A stretch of DNA of 7,424 bases from a virus (Duplodnaviria > Heunggongvirae > Uroviricota > Caudoviricetes). The stretch is from the IMG/VR virus record IMGVR_UViG_3300028985_000011; one strand, written 5' to 3'. This document shows, piece after piece, positions 1 to 6,345 of the stretch; the first letter of the stretch is position 1; every line of letters starts with the position of its first letter. The position numbers and the translations under genes were made by a program. Below the pieces are notes generated by a model, which made no database searches, had not been told where the DNA came from, and saw nothing but the letters and a program-made list of their open reading frames with translations.

Positions 1-56
1 CCCTGCCATTGCTGGCATTTTTAATCCGTTGGTATGGCGTTAATATGGCTGGCGGG

Positions 57-245
57 TTATCCAGCCGGTATTTCGTTATTCAGGTTCAGCGATACTTTTT
101 TTAACGGGAGGCATTCACCGGGGATTTTTTGTTCGTCCCTTACCTGAATGCAGGATGACTTACTGTCATAAATTCCGGTAATCACATTTTGTGGCTCACC
201 CGTTATAAGAAAAACGGTCATCACCAGTGCAAATGCTGAAGTCAC
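57..245 (-). CDS. ydfD: YdfD-like small protein (62 aa) with N-terminal hydrophobic segment; GTG start overlapping the upstream stop (GTGA)
   Basis: Minus-strand ORF MTSAFALVMTVFLITGEPQNV...; GGAG Shine-Dalgarno 7 nt upstream of GTG at 243-245; hydrophobic N-terminus (FALVMTVFLITG); position immediately after dicB-like gene as in Qin prophage. Alternative ATG start at 219-221. Symbol assigned by synteny and size, not by search. Confidence 0.5.
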   Translation of the reverse strand: MTSAFALVMTVFLITGEPQNVITGIYDSKSSCIQVRDEQKIPGECLPLKKVSLNLNNEIPAG

Positions 246-430
246 TGCTGTTCTCCGATAATACCAAGTTCAAGAAGGGCAATTCTGGAAAGTATGGAAT
301 TATCATTGAGAAGATAAGGTTCATATTTTCTCATCTTAATGGCATCTTCCGTAAACTCCCGGTTACTGAGCAGAACACCAATATCAAAACAACCTTCAGA
401 CGTATTAACGTTTGGTAATAACGTTTCCAT
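242..430 (-). CDS. dicB: DicB-like cell-division inhibitor (62 aa)
   Basis: ATG at 428-430 (minus) with GAGGA Shine-Dalgarno 7 nt upstream; N-terminus METLLPNVNTSEGCF.IGV...FTEDAI matches my recollection of E. coli DicB; C-terminal half looks divergent; lies downstream of DicF-like sRNA. The six-frame track extends this ORF to a GTG at 535, which I consider unlikely. Confidence 0.6.
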   Translation of the reverse strand: METLLPNVNTSEGCFDIGVLLSNREFTEDAIKMRKYEPYLLNDNSILSRIALLELGIIGEQQ

Positions 431-485
431 TATCGCGTCCTCAACAATGAATTTTGTGATGCGGTGCCTGGTGCCTCCAGGTGAC

Positions 486-506
486 GTTAACCAGTTAACA
501 ATTAAC
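486..506. repeat. Three tandem (G/A)TTAAC hexamers at about 8-bp spacing in the dicB-like 5' leader
   Basis: GTTAAC at 486-491 and 494-499, ATTAAC at 501-506; GTTAAC is self-complementary so the cluster can form alternative RNA or DNA hairpins; function unknown. Confidence 0.4.
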
Positions 507-599
507 GCCGGATACAGAGAATCCACCCATAACACTGTTTTTGGTTTTAACTGTTCCGCGTGCGCTCAGCCGCATTCACCACATCACAAAATTCACTTT

Positions 600-642
600 A
601 AAAAGGGCGGCAGAGCAGTCACGGAGTAAAACTGATACCGCC
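600..642 (-). terminator. Rho-independent terminator at the 3' end of the DicF-like RNA
   Basis: On minus strand GGCGG (plus 638-642) ... CCGCC (plus 606-610) followed by C then TTTTT (plus 604-600); inner CAGT/ACTG pairing possible within the loop. Confidence 0.5.
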
Positions 643-657
643 AAACGTCACCAGAAA
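600..657 (-). ncRNA. dicF: DicF-like small regulatory RNA with 3' intrinsic terminator
   Basis: Minus-strand sequence TTTCTGGTGACGTTTGGCGGTATCAGTTTTACTCCGTGACTGCTCTGCCGCCCTTTTT matches my recollection of E. coli DicF; ends in GC stem (plus 638-642 / 606-610) plus U5 tract (plus 600-604); located between the upstream ORFs and dicB-like gene as in Qin. Not verified by covariance model. Confidence 0.55.
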
Positions 658-962
658 ATTGATAACAGAGGGCGTTGCAGCGGGGTTGTCACTTAAGCGT
701 ATGGTCAACCTGACAACCCGGTGTCCTCAGCGGGGTAAGGAATAACCCCGCCATACTTACCGCCGCGCCATTTCGCGGATTGCCACAACCGGAAGCGCAC
801 GATCGAATTAAATTTAACGACGACCTATACAGAGAGACTAACTTCTCCGGGCGCTTTCGTGTTATGCCCTGACTTTTCAGGGATATATCCTTTTCAGTAA
901 ACTGTCAGTGCCGGATTCTTATCCGTGTCCGGCGCACGCACTCTACCTCACCTGTGAATAAA
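658..962 (-). other. Hairpin-rich untranslated region between upstream ORF and DicF-like RNA (probable precursor/processing region)
   Basis: No ORF of convincing size or RBS on either strand; 9-bp stem GGGTTGTCA (683-691) / TGACAACCC (711-719); stem GCGGGGT (730-736) / ACCCCGC (745-751); direct repeat CAGCGGGGT at 678-686 and 728-736; stem CCCTGA (867-872) / TCAGGG (877-882); palindrome GGATATATCC (881-890); stem GCCGGA (910-915) / TCCGGC (928-933). Confidence 0.4.
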
Positions 963-1301
963 TTAATGATTAATTGATATTTTGTTGTTTGATTCAACTT
1001 TCCCATCGGATGTGTGATGCTTTAAATCACAGGAATTAATACTGCTTGCTGTAAAATGATTTTCAAGGGGAGCTATTCGAATCCCTTTCTTTTTCATTAA
1101 CAAGCCAAATCCTTTATTAATGATGTCCATTAATTCCAGAAAGTATTTTTCATGTAAATCCTGGTTATCAGAGAGCTGCTTCTCTTCGTACAGCCCGATA
1201 AAGGCTCGGCGTACGTTACCGGATATATTGTCGATGGTTTCTTTTTCTACGGTACTCAGGTCAAGAGTCGCCAGTTGAGAGCGAACCACATTCGATGCCA
1301 T
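963..1301 (-). CDS. Hypothetical protein, AT-rich 3' half; true start may lie upstream inside the N-run
   Basis: Minus ORF open from the N-run to stop at 963-965 (ATG at 1299-1301 has AGGAA directly abutting, poor spacing; frame stays open upstream to 1319); GC content drops markedly toward 963; no family recognised. Confidence 0.5.
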   Translation of the reverse strand: MASNVVRSQLATLDLSTVEKETIDNISGNVRRAFIGLYEEKQLSDNQDLHEKYFLELMDIINKGFGLLMKKKGIRIAPLENHFTASSINSCDLKHHTSDGKVESNNKISINH

Positions 1302-1319
1302 TTCCTGGAATGGTACTGG

Positions 1320-1373
1320 NNNNNNNNNNNNNNNNNNNNNNNNNNNNNNNNNNNNNNNNNNNNNNNNNNNNNN
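1320..1373. other. Run of 54 undetermined bases (assembly gap or masked sequence)
   Basis: n characters from 1320 to 1373; flanking minus-strand ORFs are in different frames, so gene structure across it is unresolved. Confidence 1.
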
Positions 1374-1503
1374 AGCGACGCGCGCCAGCTTCGGTTTTAA
1401 ACGTTTTGCTTTTGGTATACGTCATGGCGGTGAATGTGCCGTCCTGGTTGGGGAACACACCACATACCAGAGATTCGCTGTTGCCAAGATCGATAGTATC
1501 CAT
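1374..1503 (-). CDS. Hypothetical small protein, first gene of the leftward operon (3' end hidden in N-run)
   Basis: ATG at 1501-1503 (minus) with GAGG Shine-Dalgarno 5 nt upstream; encodes MDTIDLGNSESLVCGVFPNQDGTFTAMTYTKSKTFKTEAGARR...; the track's TTG start at 1608 has no RBS and overlaps the predicted promoter; occupies the position of ydfA-like genes downstream of dicA in Qin. Confidence 0.45.
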
Positions 1504-1579
1504 GCTGACCTCATTACCCCTTAACGCCGGGTAGCGGAACTGTTTGCTGAGAACACCGTGCGGTGTCTTGATGGGTGGT

Positions 1580-1608
1580 AATTTAGTTTTCTCATGAATG
1601 TTGGTCAA
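1580..1608 (-). promoter_or_regulatory. Candidate leftward sigma70 promoter (dicB-operon / PL-like) with embedded operator-like motif
   Basis: On minus strand -35 TTGACC (plus 1603-1608), 17-nt spacer, -10 TAAATT (plus 1580-1585); spacer contains TGAGAAAACT (plus 1585-1594), the same core motif found at 1619-1631 and 2152-2164. Confidence 0.45.
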
Positions 1609-1616
1609 GCATTTTT

Positions 1617-1632
1617 AATGAGAAAACTCAAT
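1617..1632. promoter_or_regulatory. Operator-like near-palindrome AATGAGAAAACTCAAT (left copy)
   Basis: 13-nt identity TGAGAAAACTCAA with the site at 2152-2164; inverted arms TGAG/CTCA around AAAA; 11 bp upstream of the candidate -35. Confidence 0.45.
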
Positions 1633-1640
1633 ATTTAATG

Positions 1641-1672
1641 CAAAATAAAGCCAATACATTGAAATGTAAGGC
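1641..1672 (-). terminator. Possible weak intrinsic terminator downstream of the repressor gene
   Basis: On minus strand AAAGCC-TTACATTTCAATGTATT-GGCTTT hairpin (inner palindrome TACATTGAAATGTA at 1655-1668) followed by TTTATTTT; stem is AT-rich so strength is doubtful. Confidence 0.3.
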
Positions 1673-1692
1673 TTTAAAATTTGTGAAGGGGG

Positions 1693-2100
1693 TTACTGAT
1701 GTTTGTTACGTTTGCGAGCTTCTAGTAGCTCGGTGAATAGGCGATTAAAATTCTCAACGCGGGCACGGAGTTCGCTGATTTGTGCTTGCTGCTCTGATTT
1801 TGGAAGTGCGCGATACAATCGCAACATCTCCAACTCATCTTCCGATAAGTCTAAGGCGCTGTTGAGTGCTACTGGTGGATCTGGTGTTTTATCCTCGTCA
1901 CCAAACAGTATCCAAGTTGGTGAACATTGCAATACCTCAGCCAGGCGATGCAAATTTTGCCCGCGCGGGGCTGTATGGTCGCTTTCCCATAGTGAAATTG
2001 ATGAGCCAGATACGCCAGCGGCTTTGCTTAAATCGTTTTGACTTAAACCAACCTGTTTGCGTCTTTCTCTAATTCGTTGACCTAAAGTTTTCTCGTTCAT
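1693..2100 (-). CDS. dicA: DicA-family HTH (XRE-type) prophage repressor, 135 aa
   Basis: N-terminal HTH (QRIRERRKQVGLSQNDLSKAAGVSGSSISLWE) and the motif LQCSPTWILFGDEDK that I recognise from E. coli DicA (also 135 aa); ATG at 2098-2100 with no obvious Shine-Dalgarno; divergent from a Cro-like gene. Confidence 0.9.
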   Translation of the reverse strand: MNEKTLGQRIRERRKQVGLSQNDLSKAAGVSGSSISLWESDHTAPRGQNLHRLAEVLQCSPTWILFGDEDKTPDPPVALNSALDLSEDELEMLRLYRALPKSEQQAQISELRARVENFNRLFTELLEARKRNKHQ

Positions 2101-2121
2101 ATTTAGATATCTTAATAACCC

Positions 2122-2151
2122 TTGACTTGAGATTCCTTGAATGGTTACTAT
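2122..2151 (+). promoter_or_regulatory. Candidate rightward sigma70 promoter (PR-like) for the dicC-like operon
   Basis: -35 TTGACT (2122-2127), 18-nt spacer, -10 TACTAT (2146-2151); about 27 nt upstream of the dicC-like ATG; CTTGA direct repeats at 2121, 2126, 2136. Confidence 0.5.
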
Positions 2152-2165
2152 TGAGAAAACTCAAC
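2150..2165. promoter_or_regulatory. Operator-like palindrome ATTGAGAAAACTCAAC (right copy)
   Basis: Perfect inverted repeat TTGAG-AAAA-CTCAA (2151-2164) overlapping the -10 and predicted start site of the rightward promoter; 13-nt identity with 1619-1631. Confidence 0.5.
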
Positions 2166-2177
2166 TTTGGAGGGGTG

Positions 2178-2405
2178 ATGTTTAAATCAGACGTAATTAA
2201 TTTTTATGGGACGAAAGCCAAAGTAGCGAAAGCTGCTGGTGTTGATCCATCTGCTGTTTCTCAATGGGGGGAACTGGTTCCTGAAGGTCGCGCGATGCGC
2301 CTGCAAGAGGCATCCGGCGGGGAACTTCAGTACGACCCCAAAGTTTATGACGAATATCGTAAGGCAAAGCGGGCGGGGCGGTTGAACAATGAAAATCACC
2401 CCTGA
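2178..2405 (+). CDS. dicC: DicC/Cro-like small DNA-binding regulator, 76 aa
   Basis: ATG at 2178 preceded by GGAGGGG (2169-2175); product MFKSDVINFYGTKAKVAKAAGVDPSAVSQW...; same length as E. coli DicC and divergent from the dicA-like gene; the upstream extension to 2127 in the track lacks an RBS and overlaps the promoter. Confidence 0.8.
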   Translation: MFKSDVINFYGTKAKVAKAAGVDPSAVSQWGELVPEGRAMRLQEASGGELQYDPKVYDEYRKAKRAGRLNNENHP

Positions 2406-2940
2406 ACAGGTTTGTGAGGCTCTGGATGCCTGGGTATGTCGACCAGGAATGACACAGGAGCAAGCGACGATATTAATCACGGAAGCATTCTGGGCTCTGA
2501 AAGAACGCCCGAACATCGATGTTCAACGCGTCACGTTTAATGATGGCGAGGTTGATCAACGGGCGCTGGGCGTTAACCGGGTGAAGATATTCGAACGCTG
2601 GAAAGCTATCGACACCAGGGATAAGCGGAAAAAATTCACGGCGCTGATTCCGGCAATTATGGAGGCTATCCGAATTAGTGATTTCAGGTTGTATCGTGAG
2701 ATCAGTGATGGAAAAAGCATTACGTACATGATCGCCGGATTAAACAAAGAATATGGCGATGTGGTGGAGTCCGGGCTGCTTTTTGCGGATCCAGCTGTTG
2801 TGGAACGTGAGACTGACGAGCTTATAGAAAAAGCTATTGCTTTCAAGCATGCGTATCGTCAGCAATATCAATATTACTTTGCAGATAAACAAATGTCTGC
2901 CAGGGGTTTGTATGAGTATCGATGCACTACGATGGGCTAA
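2389..2940 (+). CDS. YdaT-like protein (CII-position regulator/toxin family), 183 aa
   Basis: ORF MKITPEQVCEALDAW...; third gene of the rightward operon as in Rac-type racR-ydaS-ydaT arrangements; start overlaps dicC-like stop by 17 nt; family assignment from memory only. Confidence 0.7.
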   Translation: MKITPEQVCEALDAWVCRPGMTQEQATILITEAFWALKERPNIDVQRVTFNDGEVDQRALGVNRVKIFERWKAIDTRDKRKKFTALIPAIMEAIRISDFRLYREISDGKSITYMIAGLNKEYGDVVESGLLFADPAVVERETDELIEKAIAFKHAYRQQYQYYFADKQMSARGLYEYRCTTMG

Positions 2941-3952
2941 AAAGGTGAAAACCGGCAGTTCATCCAGTAAGTCTGTATTGACCTGGCTTGCTGATATGTG
3001 CGGTGCCGATTTGTGTGCATACCCGTCTGTATCTGCACTGGCAGAAGTAACGGAACTAAACAAAAAGACTGTGCAGGACAGCTTACGACACCTGATGGAG
3101 ATTGGGTTAATTGTTGATACCGGTGAGAGAAAAGGCAGAACAAAGCAAATTGTGGTGTACCGACTTATCGGTGTAGAAGAAAGTGTTGCCGAGCCTGAAT
3201 ACACCCAAAAACGGGAGTCTTTAAAGGTGGGTAAAATTGGTGCTGTTAATAAAAACAGTACCGAAAATGGTTATGTTTCAGCACAAAACAGACCCAAAAA
3301 CGGAACTCTTAGCTGCATGGAAAATAACCAAAGACACCCAAATTTTCCATCAAAGACACCCAAAAACGGATCACGGAACCCAAAGGAACCCAAAGATCTA
3401 AACCCCACACATAACGCACGCGAGAGTGCTCCGACCAGTGAGCAGGAAGTTTTGTCGTTACAGGCAGCACCCCTTGTATTCCTGGATGGCCTGAGCGAAC
3501 CCATCGGAAAATTTCCGATGACCGATAGCTGGTATCCGTCACGGGATTTTCGACGACGGGCTGCGTTGTGGGGGATGGCTTTGCCGGAGACAGAATTTAC
3601 ACCTGCTGAACTTGCCGCCTTCCGGGACTACTGGGCAGCGGAGGGGAAAGTGTTTACTCAGATTCAGTGGGAGCAGAAATTCGCCCGTCACGTAAATCAC
3701 GTCAGGGCGCAGGTTAAACCAGTCAGCAAGGGGGTAAACCATGCAGCAGCACCAGGTGGCACCGCATCACGGGCAGTTCAGGAAATTCGGGCAGCACGTG
3801 AGCAGTGGGAACGTGAAAACGGATTTATCAGCGACGGAAACGGTCTGGAAGCTGTGGGAACTCATGGGGGAGGTTTATTCGAACCGCTGGACCCAGAAGA
3901 ACGGGGCCGCACCTTCGAAGCTCTGGATTGCACAGATTGGCGCGATGACTGA
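2912..3952 (+). CDS. Replication initiation protein (lambda-O-position): N-terminal HTH DNA-binding domain, low-complexity linker, C-terminal DnaT-like domain
   Basis: ATG at 2912 with AGGGG 5 nt upstream (track start at 2837 is TTG without RBS); N-terminal LTWLADMCGADLCAYPSVSALAEVTELNKKTVQDSLRHLMEIGLI resembles replication-initiator HTH; C-terminal WYPSRDFRRRAALWGMALPE...FRDYWAAEG resembles DnaT-type domain; iteron-like repeats inside. Confidence 0.8.
   Translation: MSIDALRWAKKVKTGSSSSKSVLTWLADMCGADLCAYPSVSALAEVTELNKKTVQDSLRHLMEIGLIVDTGERKGRTKQIVVYRLIGVEESVAEPEYTQKRESLKVGKIGAVNKNSTENGYVSAQNRPKNGTLSCMENNQRHPNFPSKTPKNGSRNPKEPKDLNPTHNARESAPTSEQEVLSLQAAPLVFLDGLSEPIGKFPMTDSWYPSRDFRRRAALWGMALPETEFTPAELAAFRDYWAAEGKVFTQIQWEQKFARHVNHVRAQVKPVSKGVNHAAAPGGTASRAVQEIRAAREQWERENGFISDGNGLEAVGTHGGGLFEPLDPEERGRTFEALDCTDWRDD
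3290..3396. repeat. Iteron-like repeat array inside the initiator gene (candidate replication origin)
   Basis: Core CCCAAA five times (3293, 3337, 3359, 3379, 3389); 12-mer CCCAAAAACGGA at 3293-3304 and 3359-3370; 14-mer CAAAGACACCCAAA at 3329-3342 and 3351-3364 (22 bp apart); tandem GAACCCAAAG at 3376-3385 and 3386-3395; AT-rich tract 3240-3290 just upstream. Confidence 0.5.
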
Positions 3953-4406
3953 GCAGCAAATCCGACAGGTCTGCCGCCAGTGCATGGACCGCTGCCGGGC
4001 GGGTGAAACATGGCCTCCGGACCTGGCTGAGTTTGTGGCGCTGATTTCAGAAAGCGGGGCCAATCCATTTGGCCTGACGGTGGATGCTGTGATGGAGGAG
4101 TACCGCCGCTGGCGTGATGAGTCCTGGCGATATGACGGAAGCGACAAATATCCGTGGCCTCAGCCTGTGCTGTACCACATCTGCCTCGAAATGCGTACCA
4201 GAGGGATTGAGCGCCAGATGACGCAGGGTGAGTTAAAACGACTTGCGGAACGGCAACTGACGAAATGGGCAAAGCATGTTGGTAACGGGATGAGTGTTCC
4301 GCCAGTGCGACGACAACTGGAAGGGGCGAAACACCCGCAAGGGCCAACGCCAATTGAACGGCTGAAACAGGAATACGAACGCCGGAAGGCAGCTGGTTTT
4401 ATTTGA
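3741..4406 (+). CDS. Lambda-P-like replication protein (helicase loader), 221 aa
   Basis: Strong RBS AAGGGGG (3728-3734) 6 nt before ATG 3741; internal regions MTEQQIRQV, WPPDLAEFVALI, YPWPQPVLYHICLEM align by eye with lambda P; overlaps the 3' end of the initiator gene by 212 nt in another frame (alternative starts GTG 3813 or ATG 3864). Confidence 0.7.
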   Translation: MQQHQVAPHHGQFRKFGQHVSSGNVKTDLSATETVWKLWELMGEVYSNRWTQKNGAAPSKLWIAQIGAMTEQQIRQVCRQCMDRCRAGETWPPDLAEFVALISESGANPFGLTVDAVMEEYRRWRDESWRYDGSDKYPWPQPVLYHICLEMRTRGIERQMTQGELKRLAERQLTKWAKHVGNGMSVPPVRRQLEGAKHPQGPTPIERLKQEYERRKAAGFI

Positions 4407-4439
4407 ATCTGAGAAACGATTTTGTCGGAGGAAATTTTA

Positions 4440-5210
4440 ATGGAAACCGTATTTGACGCACTGAAAGCAATGGGAAAAGCCACATCGGTAGAACTGGCCG
4501 CGCGACTTGATATCAGTCGTGAAGAGGTTCTCAACGAGCTGTGGGAACTCAAAAGAAATGGCGTCGTTGATAAAACTGGTCACACCTGGTTTCTGGCTGG
4601 CGAAGGTGAATCCCGGGTAACCGAAGAGCGGCCAGTAAAATCTGAAGCACAGGATATGCTGACCGGGGAGGTCGAACAAAAAGTTACCGCAGACATGATG
4701 ATTGAGTTTATCGGTCAGGATGGTGCTAAAACGTGTGAGGAACTGGCGGGTAAGTTCGGCGTCAGTACTCGCAAGGTTGCCTCCACGCTGGCGGTGGTAA
4801 CCGCAATGGGGCGGCTGGCACGCGTTAATCAGAACGGTAAATTTCGTTACTGCATGCCGGGCGATAATTTACCAGCAGAGCCGAAAGCCGCGCTGGTAAC
4901 GGAAAGTGATGGTAAGGCCTTTCCTCAGCCAGCAGGTGCTGCGTTACCAGTCCGGGAAGCCGCAACACAGGAAGAAATTAAAACAGAAACTGTGGCGGAC
5001 ATTGTGCAGCCGTTGCCATCGTTTACCGAAACGCAAGCAGATGAGCTGATTTTTCCGTCCCTTCGCAGGGCAAACCTGGCGCTGCGCAGGGCGAAAAGTG
5101 ATGTTCAGAAGTGGGAGCGAGTCTGCGCCGCGCTGCGGGAGCTGAACAAGCACCGGGATATTGTTCGACAGATTACTGATTCTTCCCGCCGTGTTGTATC
5201 GGAAAAGTGA
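4440..5210 (+). CDS. Hypothetical protein with two tandem winged-helix-like segments (phage nin-region family, possibly DUF1627-like)
   Basis: ATG 4440 with GGAGG (4427-4431) 8 nt upstream; the track start at 4422 is TTG; segments [30 protein letters not shown] and [33 protein letters not shown] look like wH/HTH units. Confidence 0.8.
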
Positions 5211-5225
5211 TTGCCGGAGGCGCTT

Positions 5226-5618
5226 ATGGCAAAAGTATTTACACCAGAAGAGCGGGAAGAAGTGAAGGCGCGCATTGTGGAATTCGTGCGCCTGAGCGGA
5301 CGAGAAACTTTTCGACAACTGGCAGATAAAACGGGTGTCAGTAAGACCGCTATTCGTCGTTTATCTGGTGCGCTTGCGGCCAGTGGTGATGTCTGGCTCT
5401 CTGGTTGCGGGGTATTTCCATCAGAGCAGGCGTATCGCGTATGGCGTAAGACACCGGAGAAGGCTGCTGACCCGACACTGATTCGAAAGTTACCTGACGG
5501 AGAAATACGTCGTTACAACAGACGGCAGAACATAATTTGTCGTGAGTGCCGCCAGAGCGAAGTTATGCAGCGTGTGCTGGCGTTCTATCGGGGAAACTTT
5601 CAGGAGGTGATGGAGTGA
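5226..5618 (+). CDS. Hypothetical winged-helix-like protein, 130 aa (paralogous to N-terminal part of the preceding gene)
   Basis: ATG 5226 with GGAGG (5216-5220) 5 nt upstream; segment ETFRQLADKTGVSKTAIRRLSGALAASGDV resembles the wH units of the upstream protein. Confidence 0.8.
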   Translation: MAKVFTPEEREEVKARIVEFVRLSGRETFRQLADKTGVSKTAIRRLSGALAASGDVWLSGCGVFPSEQAYRVWRKTPEKAADPTLIRKLPDGEIRRYNRRQNIICRECRQSEVMQRVLAFYRGNFQEVME

Positions 5619-5911
5619 GGGTCAGAGTTTATATTGCCGGTCCAATGACGGGATATGAAAATTTCAACCGTGAGGCGTTTCACAAGGCGGAAGAGGAACT
5701 GAAACGGGAAGGGCATACCGTCTTAAACCCGGCAGTACTTCCGGACGGGCTGACACAGCCGCACTACATGGATATTTGCATGGCAATGATTCGTTGTGTG
5801 GATGCGATTTACATGCTGAATGGCTGGCAGCGGTCAGCGGGCGCTAAGGCAGAGCTGGCACTGGCGGAGAAACTGGGGCATGCAGTGATTTATCAGGAGG
5901 TGGCTCAATGA
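5615..5911 (+). CDS. Small nucleoside 2-deoxyribosyltransferase-like protein (DUF4406-like), 98 aa
   Basis: GTG start at 5615 overlapping the upstream stop (GTGA) with AGGAGG (5602-5607) 7 nt upstream; motif VYIAGPMTG...NF...F...LNPA...GW..S.GA.AELALA typical of the NDT-like Rossmann family; the track's longer ORF from 5546 overlaps the upstream gene and is not favoured. Confidence 0.75.
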   Translation: MRVRVYIAGPMTGYENFNREAFHKAEEELKREGHTVLNPAVLPDGLTQPHYMDICMAMIRCVDAIYMLNGWQRSAGAKAELALAEKLGHAVIYQEVAQ

Positions 5912-6345
5912 GAGAGGTTAACTATGAGGCGCTTCGTGAGGCAGCACAAAACTATCAGTCGACGCTGGCGTGGTATCAGGCTATCCCGGACAGCCCAAAT
6001 GCTGAACGGGATTGTGATGCGGCTCTTGCTGCGTTTAAGCGTCACATCCGTCATCGGGAAGCGGATATTATCGCTGATTTGCTGGATGGACTGGAAGAAG
6101 CAAAATCACAACTCAAAGAGCAGCGTGAGTATTACGAAGGCGTTATCTCTGATGGGAGCAAGCGTATTGCTGAACTGGAAGCGCGGGAAGTTCAATTACC
6201 GACTCGCTACGACCTTCGATATGGACACCCGATAAATGCAGATGAGCGACAAGTCATGATACCTAAAGAAAATGGCAGTTGGCTTTACCTGATTGACCTA
6301 GAACACGCATTACGCGTCGCTGACATTCGCATCAAAGGAGAGTGA
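5908..6345 (+). CDS. Hypothetical protein, 145 aa, predicted helical/coiled-coil
   Basis: ATG 5908 overlapping the upstream stop (ATGA), AGGAGG (5895-5900) 7 nt upstream; no family recognised. Confidence 0.8.
   Translation: MREVNYEALREAAQNYQSTLAWYQAIPDSPNAERDCDAALAAFKRHIRHREADIIADLLDGLEEAKSQLKEQREYYEGVISDGSKRIAELEAREVQLPTRYDLRYGHPINADERQVMIPKENGSWLYLIDLEHALRVADIRIKGE

What the first reader, a model, noticed from the sequence alone, without database searches (positions are those of the whole stretch)
963..1503. Gap-interrupted, partly AT-rich cargo ORFs immediately downstream of the leftward promoter
The first leftward gene (ATG 1503, good RBS) runs into a 54-nt N-run, and the ORF emerging on the other side (to 963) is in a different frame and becomes strongly AT-rich toward its end. 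Either two or more genes lie here or one gene is frameshifted. In Qin this position holds the tiny ydfA/B/C genes, so the larger ORF(s) here may be different, horizontally acquired cargo in a promoter-proximal slot that prophages often use for host-benefit or exclusion functions. Function cannot be assigned from sequence.
Basis: partly seen in the sequence, partly recalled or inferred. Interest (0 to 1): 0.55.

Follow-up and report, generated by a model that had tools for sequence, protein, structure and literature searches.

The report
ydfA plus uncharacterised dicBF-operon small gene
The run of N bases hides the junction between two ordinary small prophage genes: a ydfA copy and a common but uncharacterised 124-residue helical protein, both at the start of the well-known dicBF cell-division-inhibitor operon of a Qin-like E. 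coli prophage.

Summary
ATG 1503 with a GAGG ribosome-binding site, 54 N at 1320-1373, a second ORF in another frame ending at 963, and GC falling from 46% to about 31% are all there.

A complete E. coli genome, identical over 1319 bases on one flank and 99.92% over 4969 bases on the other, resolves the gap. So do 43 further loci. All carry the same 52-nt stretch: the last codons and TGA of ydfA, an 11-nt spacer with GAGG, then ATG GAA TTT AAA GAT TTA.

There are two translationally coupled genes, not one frameshifted gene.
- **Gene 1** is ydfA (DUF1391, 92% identical to K-12 YdfA).
- **Gene 2** is a 124-aa "hypothetical protein" (WP_016237926.1, phrog_6937). It is unrelated to YdfB or YdfC.

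Gene 2 has a conserved 52-aa N-terminal helical module (MEFKDLP...NVRxAFxxLY) and a C-terminal part that differs between relatives, with a recombination breakpoint near codon 55. It is the last ORF before the dicF leader in many dicBF operons. About 16% of complete E. coli genomes carry it, and in O157:H7 it sits alongside ydfA, ydfB and ydfC.

No Pfam, NCBIfam, PADLOC, PDB or fold match was found, so its function remains unknown. The likeliest reading is a protein-binding early-lytic accessory factor. Low interest.

The parts
1580..1608 (-). Leftward sigma-70-like promoter (dicBp/PL-like): -35 TTGACC at 1608-1603, 17-nt spacer, -10 TAAATT at 1585-1580
   Evidence: L001 7727-7699, converted as L001 minus 6119. 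It is a consensus match only: the scan found 4 sites against 4.4 expected by chance. Support comes from its position and the flanking operators.
1581..1632 (.). Operator-like inverted repeat: 18-nt arms at 1581-1598 and 1615-1632, half-site TGAGAAAACTCAA. The arms bracket the -35, and one overlaps the -10. Further copies lie at 2086-2103 and 2149-2164 in the repressor/cro divergent region.
   Evidence: I1, I2, I4, D2, D3
1351..1503 (-). ydfA orthologue (DUF1391), 50 aa. ATG at 1503. Its last 7 codons and the TGA stop lie inside the N-run (position inferred from L001 7470-7622).
   Evidence: PF07151, E 1.2e-28, 99 bits against a cut-off of 27.3; 92% identical to K-12 YdfA
1320..1373 (.). 54-N run. 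In relatives it corresponds to 52 nt; on the minus strand this is GGTTAGCAAGAAACTCCGAC TGA TGAGGTTGACG ATG GAA TTT AAA GAT TTA. That is the ydfA 3' end and stop, an 11-nt spacer with GAGG, and the first 6 codons of the next gene.
   Evidence: 43 of 43 loci have exactly 52 nt
963..1337 (-). 124-aa uncharacterised protein (WP_016237926.1; phrog_6937). The ATG is inside the N-run (about 1337, by mapping from the left flank). The TAA stop is at 963-965.
   Evidence: (phrog_6937, E 1.6e-76, full length)
1173..1337 (-). Codons 1-55: conserved N-terminal helical module (MEFKDLPxx[IF]Qx[IM]AA...NVRxAFxxLY). GC 0.46, pLDDT about 90.
966..1172 (-). Codons 56-124: AT-rich C-terminal part (GC 0.31-0.32) that differs between relatives. 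It comprises the continuation of the long helix to residue 83 and a low-confidence tail.
657..962 (-). Untranslated dicF leader. Homology to K-12 Qin resumes directly after the stop codon of the 124-aa gene.
605..656 (-). DicF sRNA
   Evidence: RF00039, 76.7 bits against a gathering score of 48, E 4e-16
242..430 (-). dicB (cell-division inhibitor), downstream in the same operon
   Evidence: (RefSeq annotation of a flank that is 100% identical)
1693..2100 (-). DicA-type repressor, on the same strand and upstream of the operon. 56% identical to K-12 DicA.

Best explanation
The interval holds the first two cistrons of a Qin-type dicBF operon. The operon is transcribed leftward from a repressor-controlled promoter downstream of a DicA-like repressor gene.

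Cistron 1 is ydfA (DUF1391, 50 aa). Eleven nucleotides after its TGA, preceded by a GAGG ribosome-binding site, cistron 2 starts. It encodes a 124-aa soluble, mildly acidic, alpha-helical protein of an uncharacterised phage family (phrog_6937). The N-run hides exactly this junction, so there is no frameshift.

The 124-aa protein is built from two parts:
- A conserved ~52-residue N-terminal helical hairpin. This also exists as a stand-alone 50-65-aa protein in other prophages.
- A C-terminal extension that differs between relatives. It was joined by intragenic recombination near codon 55, which explains the abrupt fall in GC.

Inferred, not shown: the protein is made with DicF and DicB when the repressor is lifted. 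It acts by protein-protein binding, with the conserved hairpin as the constant binding or oligomerisation unit and the variable C-terminus adding or tuning specificity. On this reading it is an early-lytic host-interaction accessory factor, not a lysogenic-conversion gene.
For: Gene structure (shown):
- L001 is 100% identical to window 1-1319 and 99.92% identical to 1374-6342. It carries two annotated CDS across the gap.
- 43 of 43 related loci have the same 52-nt junction with stop, GAGG and ATG.
- Gene 1 is Pfam DUF1391 and 92% identical to K-12 YdfA.

Operon (shown):
- DicF Rfam hit at 76.7 bits; dicB and a DicA-like repressor are present.
- Operator repeats are shared between the leftward promoter and the repressor/cro region.
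- Among 80 IMG/VR loci the orders ydfA-X-dicF-dicB and ydfA-ydfB-ydfC-X-dicF-dicB (X = the 124-aa gene) dominate. Searches show the same synteny.

Real coding gene:
- dN/dS is about 0.23 (codons 1-55), 0.20 (56-95) and 0.44 (96-124).

Modularity:
- Matches to phrog_1363, phrog_2151 and phrog_9419 cover only residues 1-55/63.
- An exhaustive HMM search finds 61 cluster representatives. In 57 of them the match begins at profile position 1-2; 54 of those start at residue 1 of the protein, two at residue 5 and one follows a fused YdfC-like part. C-terminal parts are unrelated to one another, so protein lengths run from 31 to 208 aa.
- L001's N-terminal part has dS = 0 against L013, while its middle and tail match L007 and L015.

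Structure:
- AlphaFold2 with 72 sequences gives helix 8-23 packed on a long helix 32-83 (pLDDT 85-92 for residues 1-50). The tail has low confidence.
- The protein has no hydrophobic segment; pI is 5.9, and 4.65 for the N-terminal module.
Against: - No functional evidence of any kind exists for the 124-aa protein. There is no significant Pfam, NCBIfam, PADLOC or PDB sequence match, and no literature mention. The fold searches gave no significant match apart from one homologous 52-aa phage protein.
- The 'constant module plus variable specificity' reading is inference from architecture alone.
- The first 7 codons are conserved even at synonymous sites across distant members. Part of the N-terminal conservation could therefore act at the nucleotide level.
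- The window's own gap sequence is unknown, and 54 N does not equal 52 nt. A strain-specific 2-nt indel cannot be excluded.
- The dN/dS estimate rests on 7 sequences with non-independent pairs.
Confidence: 0.6

Rival explanations
1. A single gene starts at ATG 1503 and has suffered a frameshift or assembly error at the gap, so the two ORFs are halves of one protein.
For: The two ORFs are in different frames and an unresolved N-run separates them. The N-run length (54) differs by 2 from the 52 nt seen in relatives.
Against: All 43 anchored relatives, and the identical-flank genome, have a TGA stop, a GAGG and a new ATG within the stretch. The two products belong to unrelated families: DUF1391 and phrog_6937. 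ydfA is about 51 aa in K-12 as well. The second gene also occurs behind ydfC, without ydfA adjacent.
Confidence: 0.02
2. The 124-aa ORF is horizontally acquired defence or superinfection-exclusion cargo (a moron) that benefits the lysogen.
For: The C-terminal two-thirds is strongly AT-rich (GC 0.31 against roughly 0.5 for an E. coli chromosome, from general knowledge) and differs between relatives. Diversifying C-termini fit an arms-race function. From my own knowledge, the operon partner DicB is reported to protect against some phages (Ragunathan and Vanderpool 2019, not read here).
Against: PADLOC gives no hit for this protein. There is no enzymatic or membrane domain. The gene has no promoter of its own; it is translationally coupled behind ydfA, downstream of a promoter bracketed by repressor operators, so it should be silent in the lysogen. 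No inducing signal for the K-12 operon has been identified, and it is repressed by DicA (PMC5069750).
Confidence: 0.12
3. Only the ~52-aa N-terminal module is functional. The AT-rich C-terminal part is a tolerated, largely non-functional tail left by mosaic recombination at the module boundary.
For: Stand-alone 50-65-aa versions exist (P0150, P0158, P0167, P0152). C-termini are unrelated between subfamilies and have no Pfam match. Residues past about 85 are predicted with low confidence. The tail has the highest dN/dS, 0.44. Truncated 106-109-aa alleles are common.
Against: Codons 56-95 show dN/dS of about 0.20, as constrained as the N-terminal module. They are predicted as a confident continuation of helix 2 (pLDDT 70-86). 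The 124-aa allele is kept intact on at least 1000 contigs.
Confidence: 0.2
4. ydfA and the 124-aa gene form a two-gene module, for example a toxin-antitoxin-like or otherwise obligate pair, because they are adjacent and translationally coupled.
For: An 11-nt spacer with a shared arrangement occurs in 43 loci. The ydfA-X adjacency is the commonest architecture in the sample.
Against: Each gene occurs without the other. K-12 Qin has ydfA without X. PPompW, Evi and strain Cn5 have X behind ydfC with no annotated ydfA. In 26 of 80 loci, ydfB and ydfC lie between them. Phage ArgO145 has the module in a different neighbourhood.
Confidence: 0.04

Closest known systems
dicBF operon of cryptic prophage Qin, E. 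coli K-12 (dicA; ydfA-ydfB-ydfC-dicF-dicB-ydfD)
   Same: Same organisation and strand logic: a DicA-type repressor (56% identical), then ydfA (92% identical), a long leader, DicF (Rfam 76.7 bits), dicB, a DUF1482/ydfD-like gene and the YdfE-type exonuclease. Nucleotide homology to Qin resumes right after the 124-aa gene's stop.
   Different: ydfB and ydfC are absent, and a 124-aa gene that K-12 lacks takes their place. The repressor is of a different immunity type.
[not shown]
   Same: They carry the same 124-aa gene (WP_000394532.1; tail identical, middle nearly so) as the last ORF before the dicF leader.
   Different: Those operons keep ydfB and ydfC; the window has ydfA directly coupled to X. 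The N-terminal module of the window allele comes from another lineage (dS 0.26 against 0-0.05 in the rest of the gene).
PHROG families 6937, 1363, 2151, 9419 (all 'unknown function')
   Same: The protein matches phrog_6937 over its full length (E 1.6e-76). It shares residues 1-55/63 with the other three.
   Different: Only the N-terminal module is shared with 1363, 2151 and 9419; the C-termini are unrelated. No member has an assigned function.
Small host-directed proteins of lambdoid early-left (PL) operons (lambda Kil, CIII, Ral; Rac KilR; DicB). Analogy only, from general knowledge.
   Same: A small soluble protein with no enzymatic domain, encoded between the immunity region and the recombination genes. 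It is co-transcribed with cell-division inhibitors from a repressor-controlled promoter.
   Different: No significant sequence or fold match to any family or structure searched here (Pfam, NCBIfam, PADLOC, PDB, BFVD). The named proteins were not compared individually. The resemblance is positional, and no target is known.

Membership tests
DUF1391 / YdfA (Pfam PF07151) | Pfam HMM score above the gathering threshold over the whole ~50-aa protein | tested here: met
   99 bits against 27.3, E 1.2e-28, residues 2-49 of 50, using the gap-resolved sequence from L001. Residues 1-43 are directly readable in the window. 92% identical to K-12 YdfA.
DUF1391 / YdfA (Pfam PF07151) | First cistron downstream of a DicA/RacR-type repressor gene, on the same strand | tested here: met
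Qin-type dicBF operon | DicF sRNA downstream of the small ORFs, on the same strand | tested here: met
   RF00039 at 605-656 (-), 76.7 bits against a gathering score of 48
Qin-type dicBF operon | dicB downstream, and a DicA-like repressor upstream with operators at the operon promoter | tested here: met
   dicB at 242-430. Repressor 56% identical to DicA. Shared operator-like repeats at 1581-1632 and 2086-2164. Binding of the repressor to them was not tested.
Qin-type dicBF operon | ydfB and ydfC between ydfA and dicF, as in K-12 | tested here: not met
   Only 11 nt separate ydfA from the 124-aa gene. That gene shows no similarity to YdfB or YdfC. This composition is variable in the family (PMC5069750), so it does not exclude membership.
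phrog_6937 (uncharacterised phage protein family) | Full-length HMM match | tested here: met
   E 1.6e-76, residues 1-124 against profile positions 1-124 of 124
YdfB / YdfC | Sequence similarity of the 124-aa protein to K-12 YdfB or YdfC | tested here: not met
   YdfC: E 2.0 over 14 residues; YdfB: no alignment
Known anti-phage defence systems (PADLOC-DB v2) | HMM match to any catalogued defence protein | tested here: not met
   no family for the 124-aa protein. YdfA gives only a chance-level AbiEi hit (E 0.046).
Type II toxin-antitoxin-like obligate gene pair (ydfA + X) | The two genes always co-occur as a pair | tested here: not met
   ydfA without X in K-12. X without an adjacent ydfA. ydfB and ydfC intervene in 26 of 80 loci.

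The most novel reading that the evidence does not exclude
The ~52-aa MEFKDLP...NVRxAFxxLY module is an undescribed domain with no Pfam entry. It would serve as a constant adaptor, binding one conserved host or phage partner or oligomerising. It is fused by recombination to interchangeable C-terminal effector or specificity segments. This would make it a small polymorphic host-manipulation or counter-defence system embedded in the early-left operons of enterobacterial lambdoid phages, possibly modulating the DicF/DicB cell-division block.
Probability: 0.12. Interest if true: 0.5.

Novelty: already known. Interest (0 to 1): 0.15.

Why it matters
It matters little for discovery. The locus is a catalogued variant of the dicBF operon, and the exact protein is already in RefSeq and UniProt as 'hypothetical' on at least 1000 contigs.

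Its modest value is practical:
1. The N-run can be filled with high confidence, and no frameshift needs to be invoked.
2. It documents that the promoter-proximal part of dicBF operons is a cassette array (ydfA, ydfB, ydfC, X, each optional). K-12 is therefore an incomplete model of the operon found in pathogenic E. coli.
3. It flags an unnamed domain family of about 52 aa with variable C-termini. That family could be given a Pfam entry and tested alongside DicB and DicF.

Tried and rejected
- **PDB sequence or profile search.** Nothing significant.
- **Pfam on ten relatives with longer or different C-termini**, looking for a telling C-terminal domain. Nothing above threshold.
- **NCBIfam and PADLOC.** Nothing.
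- **Literature.** Searches for DUF1391, for accession numbers and for the MEFKDLP motif gave no functional report.
- **Species-representative genomes.** Only 3 loci: E. albertii twice and Xenorhabdus stockiae once. The family is narrow, apparently confined to Enterobacterales.
- **The search for related loci with the diverse alignment A4** failed because no stretch was conserved enough.
- **Source genome.** I looked for it among complete E. coli genomes. The best matches cover only 1-6342, so the window's own gap sequence could not be recovered.
- **Rejected ideas:** the frameshift reading, the YdfB/YdfC identity and the obligate ydfA-X pair.

Full report
**Observation.** The window has a single N-run of 54 bases at 1320-1373. 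On the minus strand an ATG at 1503 is preceded by GAGG with a 5-nt spacer (read), and this ORF runs into the N-run. On the other side an ORF in a different frame ends at 963. GC content is 0.46 for codons 1-55 of that distal ORF and 0.31-0.32 for codons 56-124.

**Resolving the gap.** Complete genome NZ_CP032204.1 (locus L001) is 100% identical to window 1-1319 and 99.92% identical to window 1374-6342. Between these blocks it has 52 nt, not 54. On the coding strand they read GGTTAGCAAGAAACTCCGAC TGA TGAGGTTGACG ATG GAA TTT AAA GAT TTA. That is:
- the last codons and stop of the first gene;
- an 11-nt spacer containing GAGG;
- the first six codons of a second gene.

I anchored the 14 nt on each side of the gap in all fetched loci. 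All 43 loci that carry both anchors have exactly 52 nt with the same stop/SD/ATG layout; the only differences are a few substitutions in the ydfA 3' codons.

The source strain itself is not among the complete E. coli genomes. The best hits cover only 1-6342. The 2-nt length discrepancy therefore cannot be settled, and a strain-specific indel remains formally possible.

**Gene 1.** This is a 50-aa protein (MDTIDLGNSESLVC...RRWLARNSD). It matches Pfam DUF1391 at 99 bits against a cut-off of 27.3 and is 92% identical to K-12 YdfA. It is an ordinary ydfA.

**Gene 2.** This is a 124-aa protein, annotated as hypothetical protein WP_016237926.1. The exact sequence is recorded on at least 1000 contigs, always as hypothetical or uncharacterised.
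- It matches phrog_6937 over its full length (E 1.6e-76). Only residues 1-55/63 match phrog_1363, 2151 and 9419. All four families are 'unknown function'.
- Pfam, NCBIfam, PADLOC and PDB sequence searches give nothing significant.
- It shows no similarity to K-12 YdfB or YdfC.

**Context.** The window is the early region of a Qin-like lambdoid prophage.
- Downstream on the same strand lie the dicF leader, DicF (Rfam RF00039, 76.7 bits; 605-656), dicB (242-430) and a DUF1482/ydfD-like gene.
- Upstream on the same strand is a repressor 56% identical to DicA.
- A -35/-10 match (TTGACC, 17 nt, TAAATT; 1608-1580) sits between the repressor gene and ydfA.
- That promoter match is bracketed by an 18-nt inverted repeat, with one arm overlapping the -10. 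Its half-site TGAGAAAACTCAA recurs twice in the divergent repressor/cro region.

This is the arrangement expected for a repressor-controlled early-left promoter. In K-12 the operon is repressed by DicA, and no inducing signal for it has been identified (PMC5069750). Repressor binding here is inferred, not tested.

**Where gene 2 belongs.** Nucleotide homology between the window and K-12 Qin resumes immediately after the stop codon of gene 2. K-12 simply lacks this cassette.
- In PPompW phages, phage Evi and strain Cn5 it is ydfC-X.
- In other prophages it is ydfA-X, as in the window.
- Among 80 IMG/VR loci, 50 have ydfA directly before X. Another 26 have ydfB and ydfC in between, and 4 have ydfC-X with no ydfA detected.
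- Where the contig reaches far enough, dicF and/or dicB follow in all but one case.
- Of 5426 complete E. coli genomes, 887 carry the N-terminal module, at 80-100% nucleotide identity. The C-terminal part of this allele matches in 674 genomes, 475 of them over at least 80% of that part.

Gene 2 is therefore a common, optional fourth small ORF of dicBF operons, not unusual cargo. Each of ydfA, ydfB, ydfC and X can be present or absent independently, which also argues against an obligate ydfA-X pair.

**Architecture of the protein.** An exhaustive profile search of 1.84 billion cluster representatives finds only 61 with E below 1e-3.
- In 57 of them the match begins at profile position 1-2. For 54 of those it starts at residue 1 of the protein, for two at residue 5, and one is a fusion in which a YdfC-like sequence precedes the module.
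- The module signature is M-E-F-K-D-L-P-x-x-[IVF]-Q-x-[IM]-A-A ... N-V-[RK]-x-A-F-x-x-L-Y.
- Some members are the module alone (50-65 aa). Others carry C-terminal parts unrelated to one another, so protein lengths run from 31 to 208 aa. None of ten relatives with longer or different C-termini scanned has a Pfam match above threshold.
- Species-representative genomes yield only E. albertii and Xenorhabdus, so the family appears confined to Enterobacterales and their phages.

**Recombination and selection.** In seven alleles, L001's codons 1-55 are identical to L013 (dS = 0) but differ from L007 and L015 (dS 0.26). Its codons 56-124 are nearly identical to L007 and L015 (dS 0-0.05) and differ from L013 (dS 0.30). 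An intragenic recombination breakpoint therefore lies near codon 55, coinciding with the GC step.

Pooled pN/pS is 0.23 for codons 1-55, 0.20 for 56-95 and 0.44 for 96-124. The sample is small and the pairs are not independent. The ORF is a real coding sequence, constrained through residue ~95, with a faster-evolving tail.

**Structure.** With 72 sequences, AlphaFold2 gives a mean pLDDT of 73.7. Helix 8-23 packs on a long helix 32-83, with pLDDT 85-92 over residues 1-50 and 70-86 over 51-90. The remainder has low confidence. An earlier 18-sequence model broke the long helix at residues 56-59.

The protein has no hydrophobic segment. Its pI is 5.9, and 4.65 for the N-terminal module. Fold searches return only a homologous 52-aa protein of phage phi191 and non-specific helical hairpins. 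No fold-based function can be assigned.

**Mechanism.**
- *Shown:* there are two translationally coupled cistrons at the head of a dicBF operon, and the second encodes a modular, soluble helical protein under purifying selection.
- *Inferred:* it is expressed on derepression together with DicF and DicB, and it works by protein binding. The conserved hairpin would be the constant unit and the swapped C-terminus an accessory or specificity part. I put about 0.95 on the gene structure and about 0.3 on this functional reading. The overall figure of 0.6 reflects that mix.
- *Rivals:* a non-functional tail (0.2), lysogen-benefit defence cargo (0.12), an obligate ydfA-X pair (0.04) and a frameshifted single gene (0.02).

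**Verdict.** The locus is already known at the level of sequence and operon, and interest is low. The only mildly novel angle is the unnamed N-terminal domain with variable C-termini.

Noticed in passing
window 3198-3394: Iteron-like direct repeats lie inside the O-like (DnaT-like) replication gene at 2913-3952: ACCCAAAAACGG three times, CAAAGACACCCAAA three times, GGAACCCAAA twice. This is probably the prophage replication origin, placed within the initiator gene as in lambda.
   Followed up: partly
window 1581-1632, 2086-2103, 2149-2164: Four copies of an operator-like half-site, TGAGAAAACTCAA. Two form an inverted pair bracketing the leftward promoter and two lie in the repressor/cro divergent region. 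This fits a DicA-type immunity system whose specificity differs from K-12, since the repressor is only 56% identical.
   Followed up: partly
L001 7438-7458 (the first 18 nt fall in window 1320-1337, inside the N-run) and loci L003-L005, L008-L011: The first seven codons, ATG GAA TTT AAA GAT TTA CCA, are almost invariant at the nucleotide level, synonymous sites included. This holds even in Xenorhabdus and in members only ~25-40% identical elsewhere, although the upstream sequences differ. It suggests a constraint on the mRNA (translation initiation) or a recombination junction, on top of protein-level selection.
   Followed up: partly
window 1374-1503 (ydfA): YdfA residues 18-39 weakly resemble the head-decoration protein of phage 21/lambda (SHP/gpD, PDB 1td0). 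The match is not significant (E 0.14). Several phage records label the feature under the ydfA match 'head-DNA stabilization protein D', which is probably annotation carry-over and not real homology.
   Followed up: no
window 6342 onward (inside the ead/Ea22-like gene at 5908-6345): Identity to the closest complete genomes stops abruptly at 6342, inside the Ea22-like gene. This is another mosaic junction within a coding sequence.
   Followed up: no
P0162 (149 aa): A YdfC-like sequence is fused in frame upstream of the MEFKDLP module. This is a fusion of two genes that are neighbours in PPompW, Evi and O157 operons.
   Followed up: no
L003 4386-4619, L005 3886-4119, L009 4628-4837, L010 4584-4775, L012 1237-1458, L013 and L014 1244-1519: In relatives, a small ORF on the opposite strand (63-91 aa, hypothetical) is called at or overlapping the 3' end of the MEFKDLP-module gene. 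No equivalent is annotated in the window's closest relative, L001. I did not test whether it is a real gene.
   Followed up: no
window 2389-2940 and 2178-2405: A YdaT-family 'toxin' gene overlaps the end of the Cro-like gene, in the position that cII occupies in lambda. This is the YdaS/YdaT arrangement typical of Rac- and Qin-like prophages.
   Followed up: no
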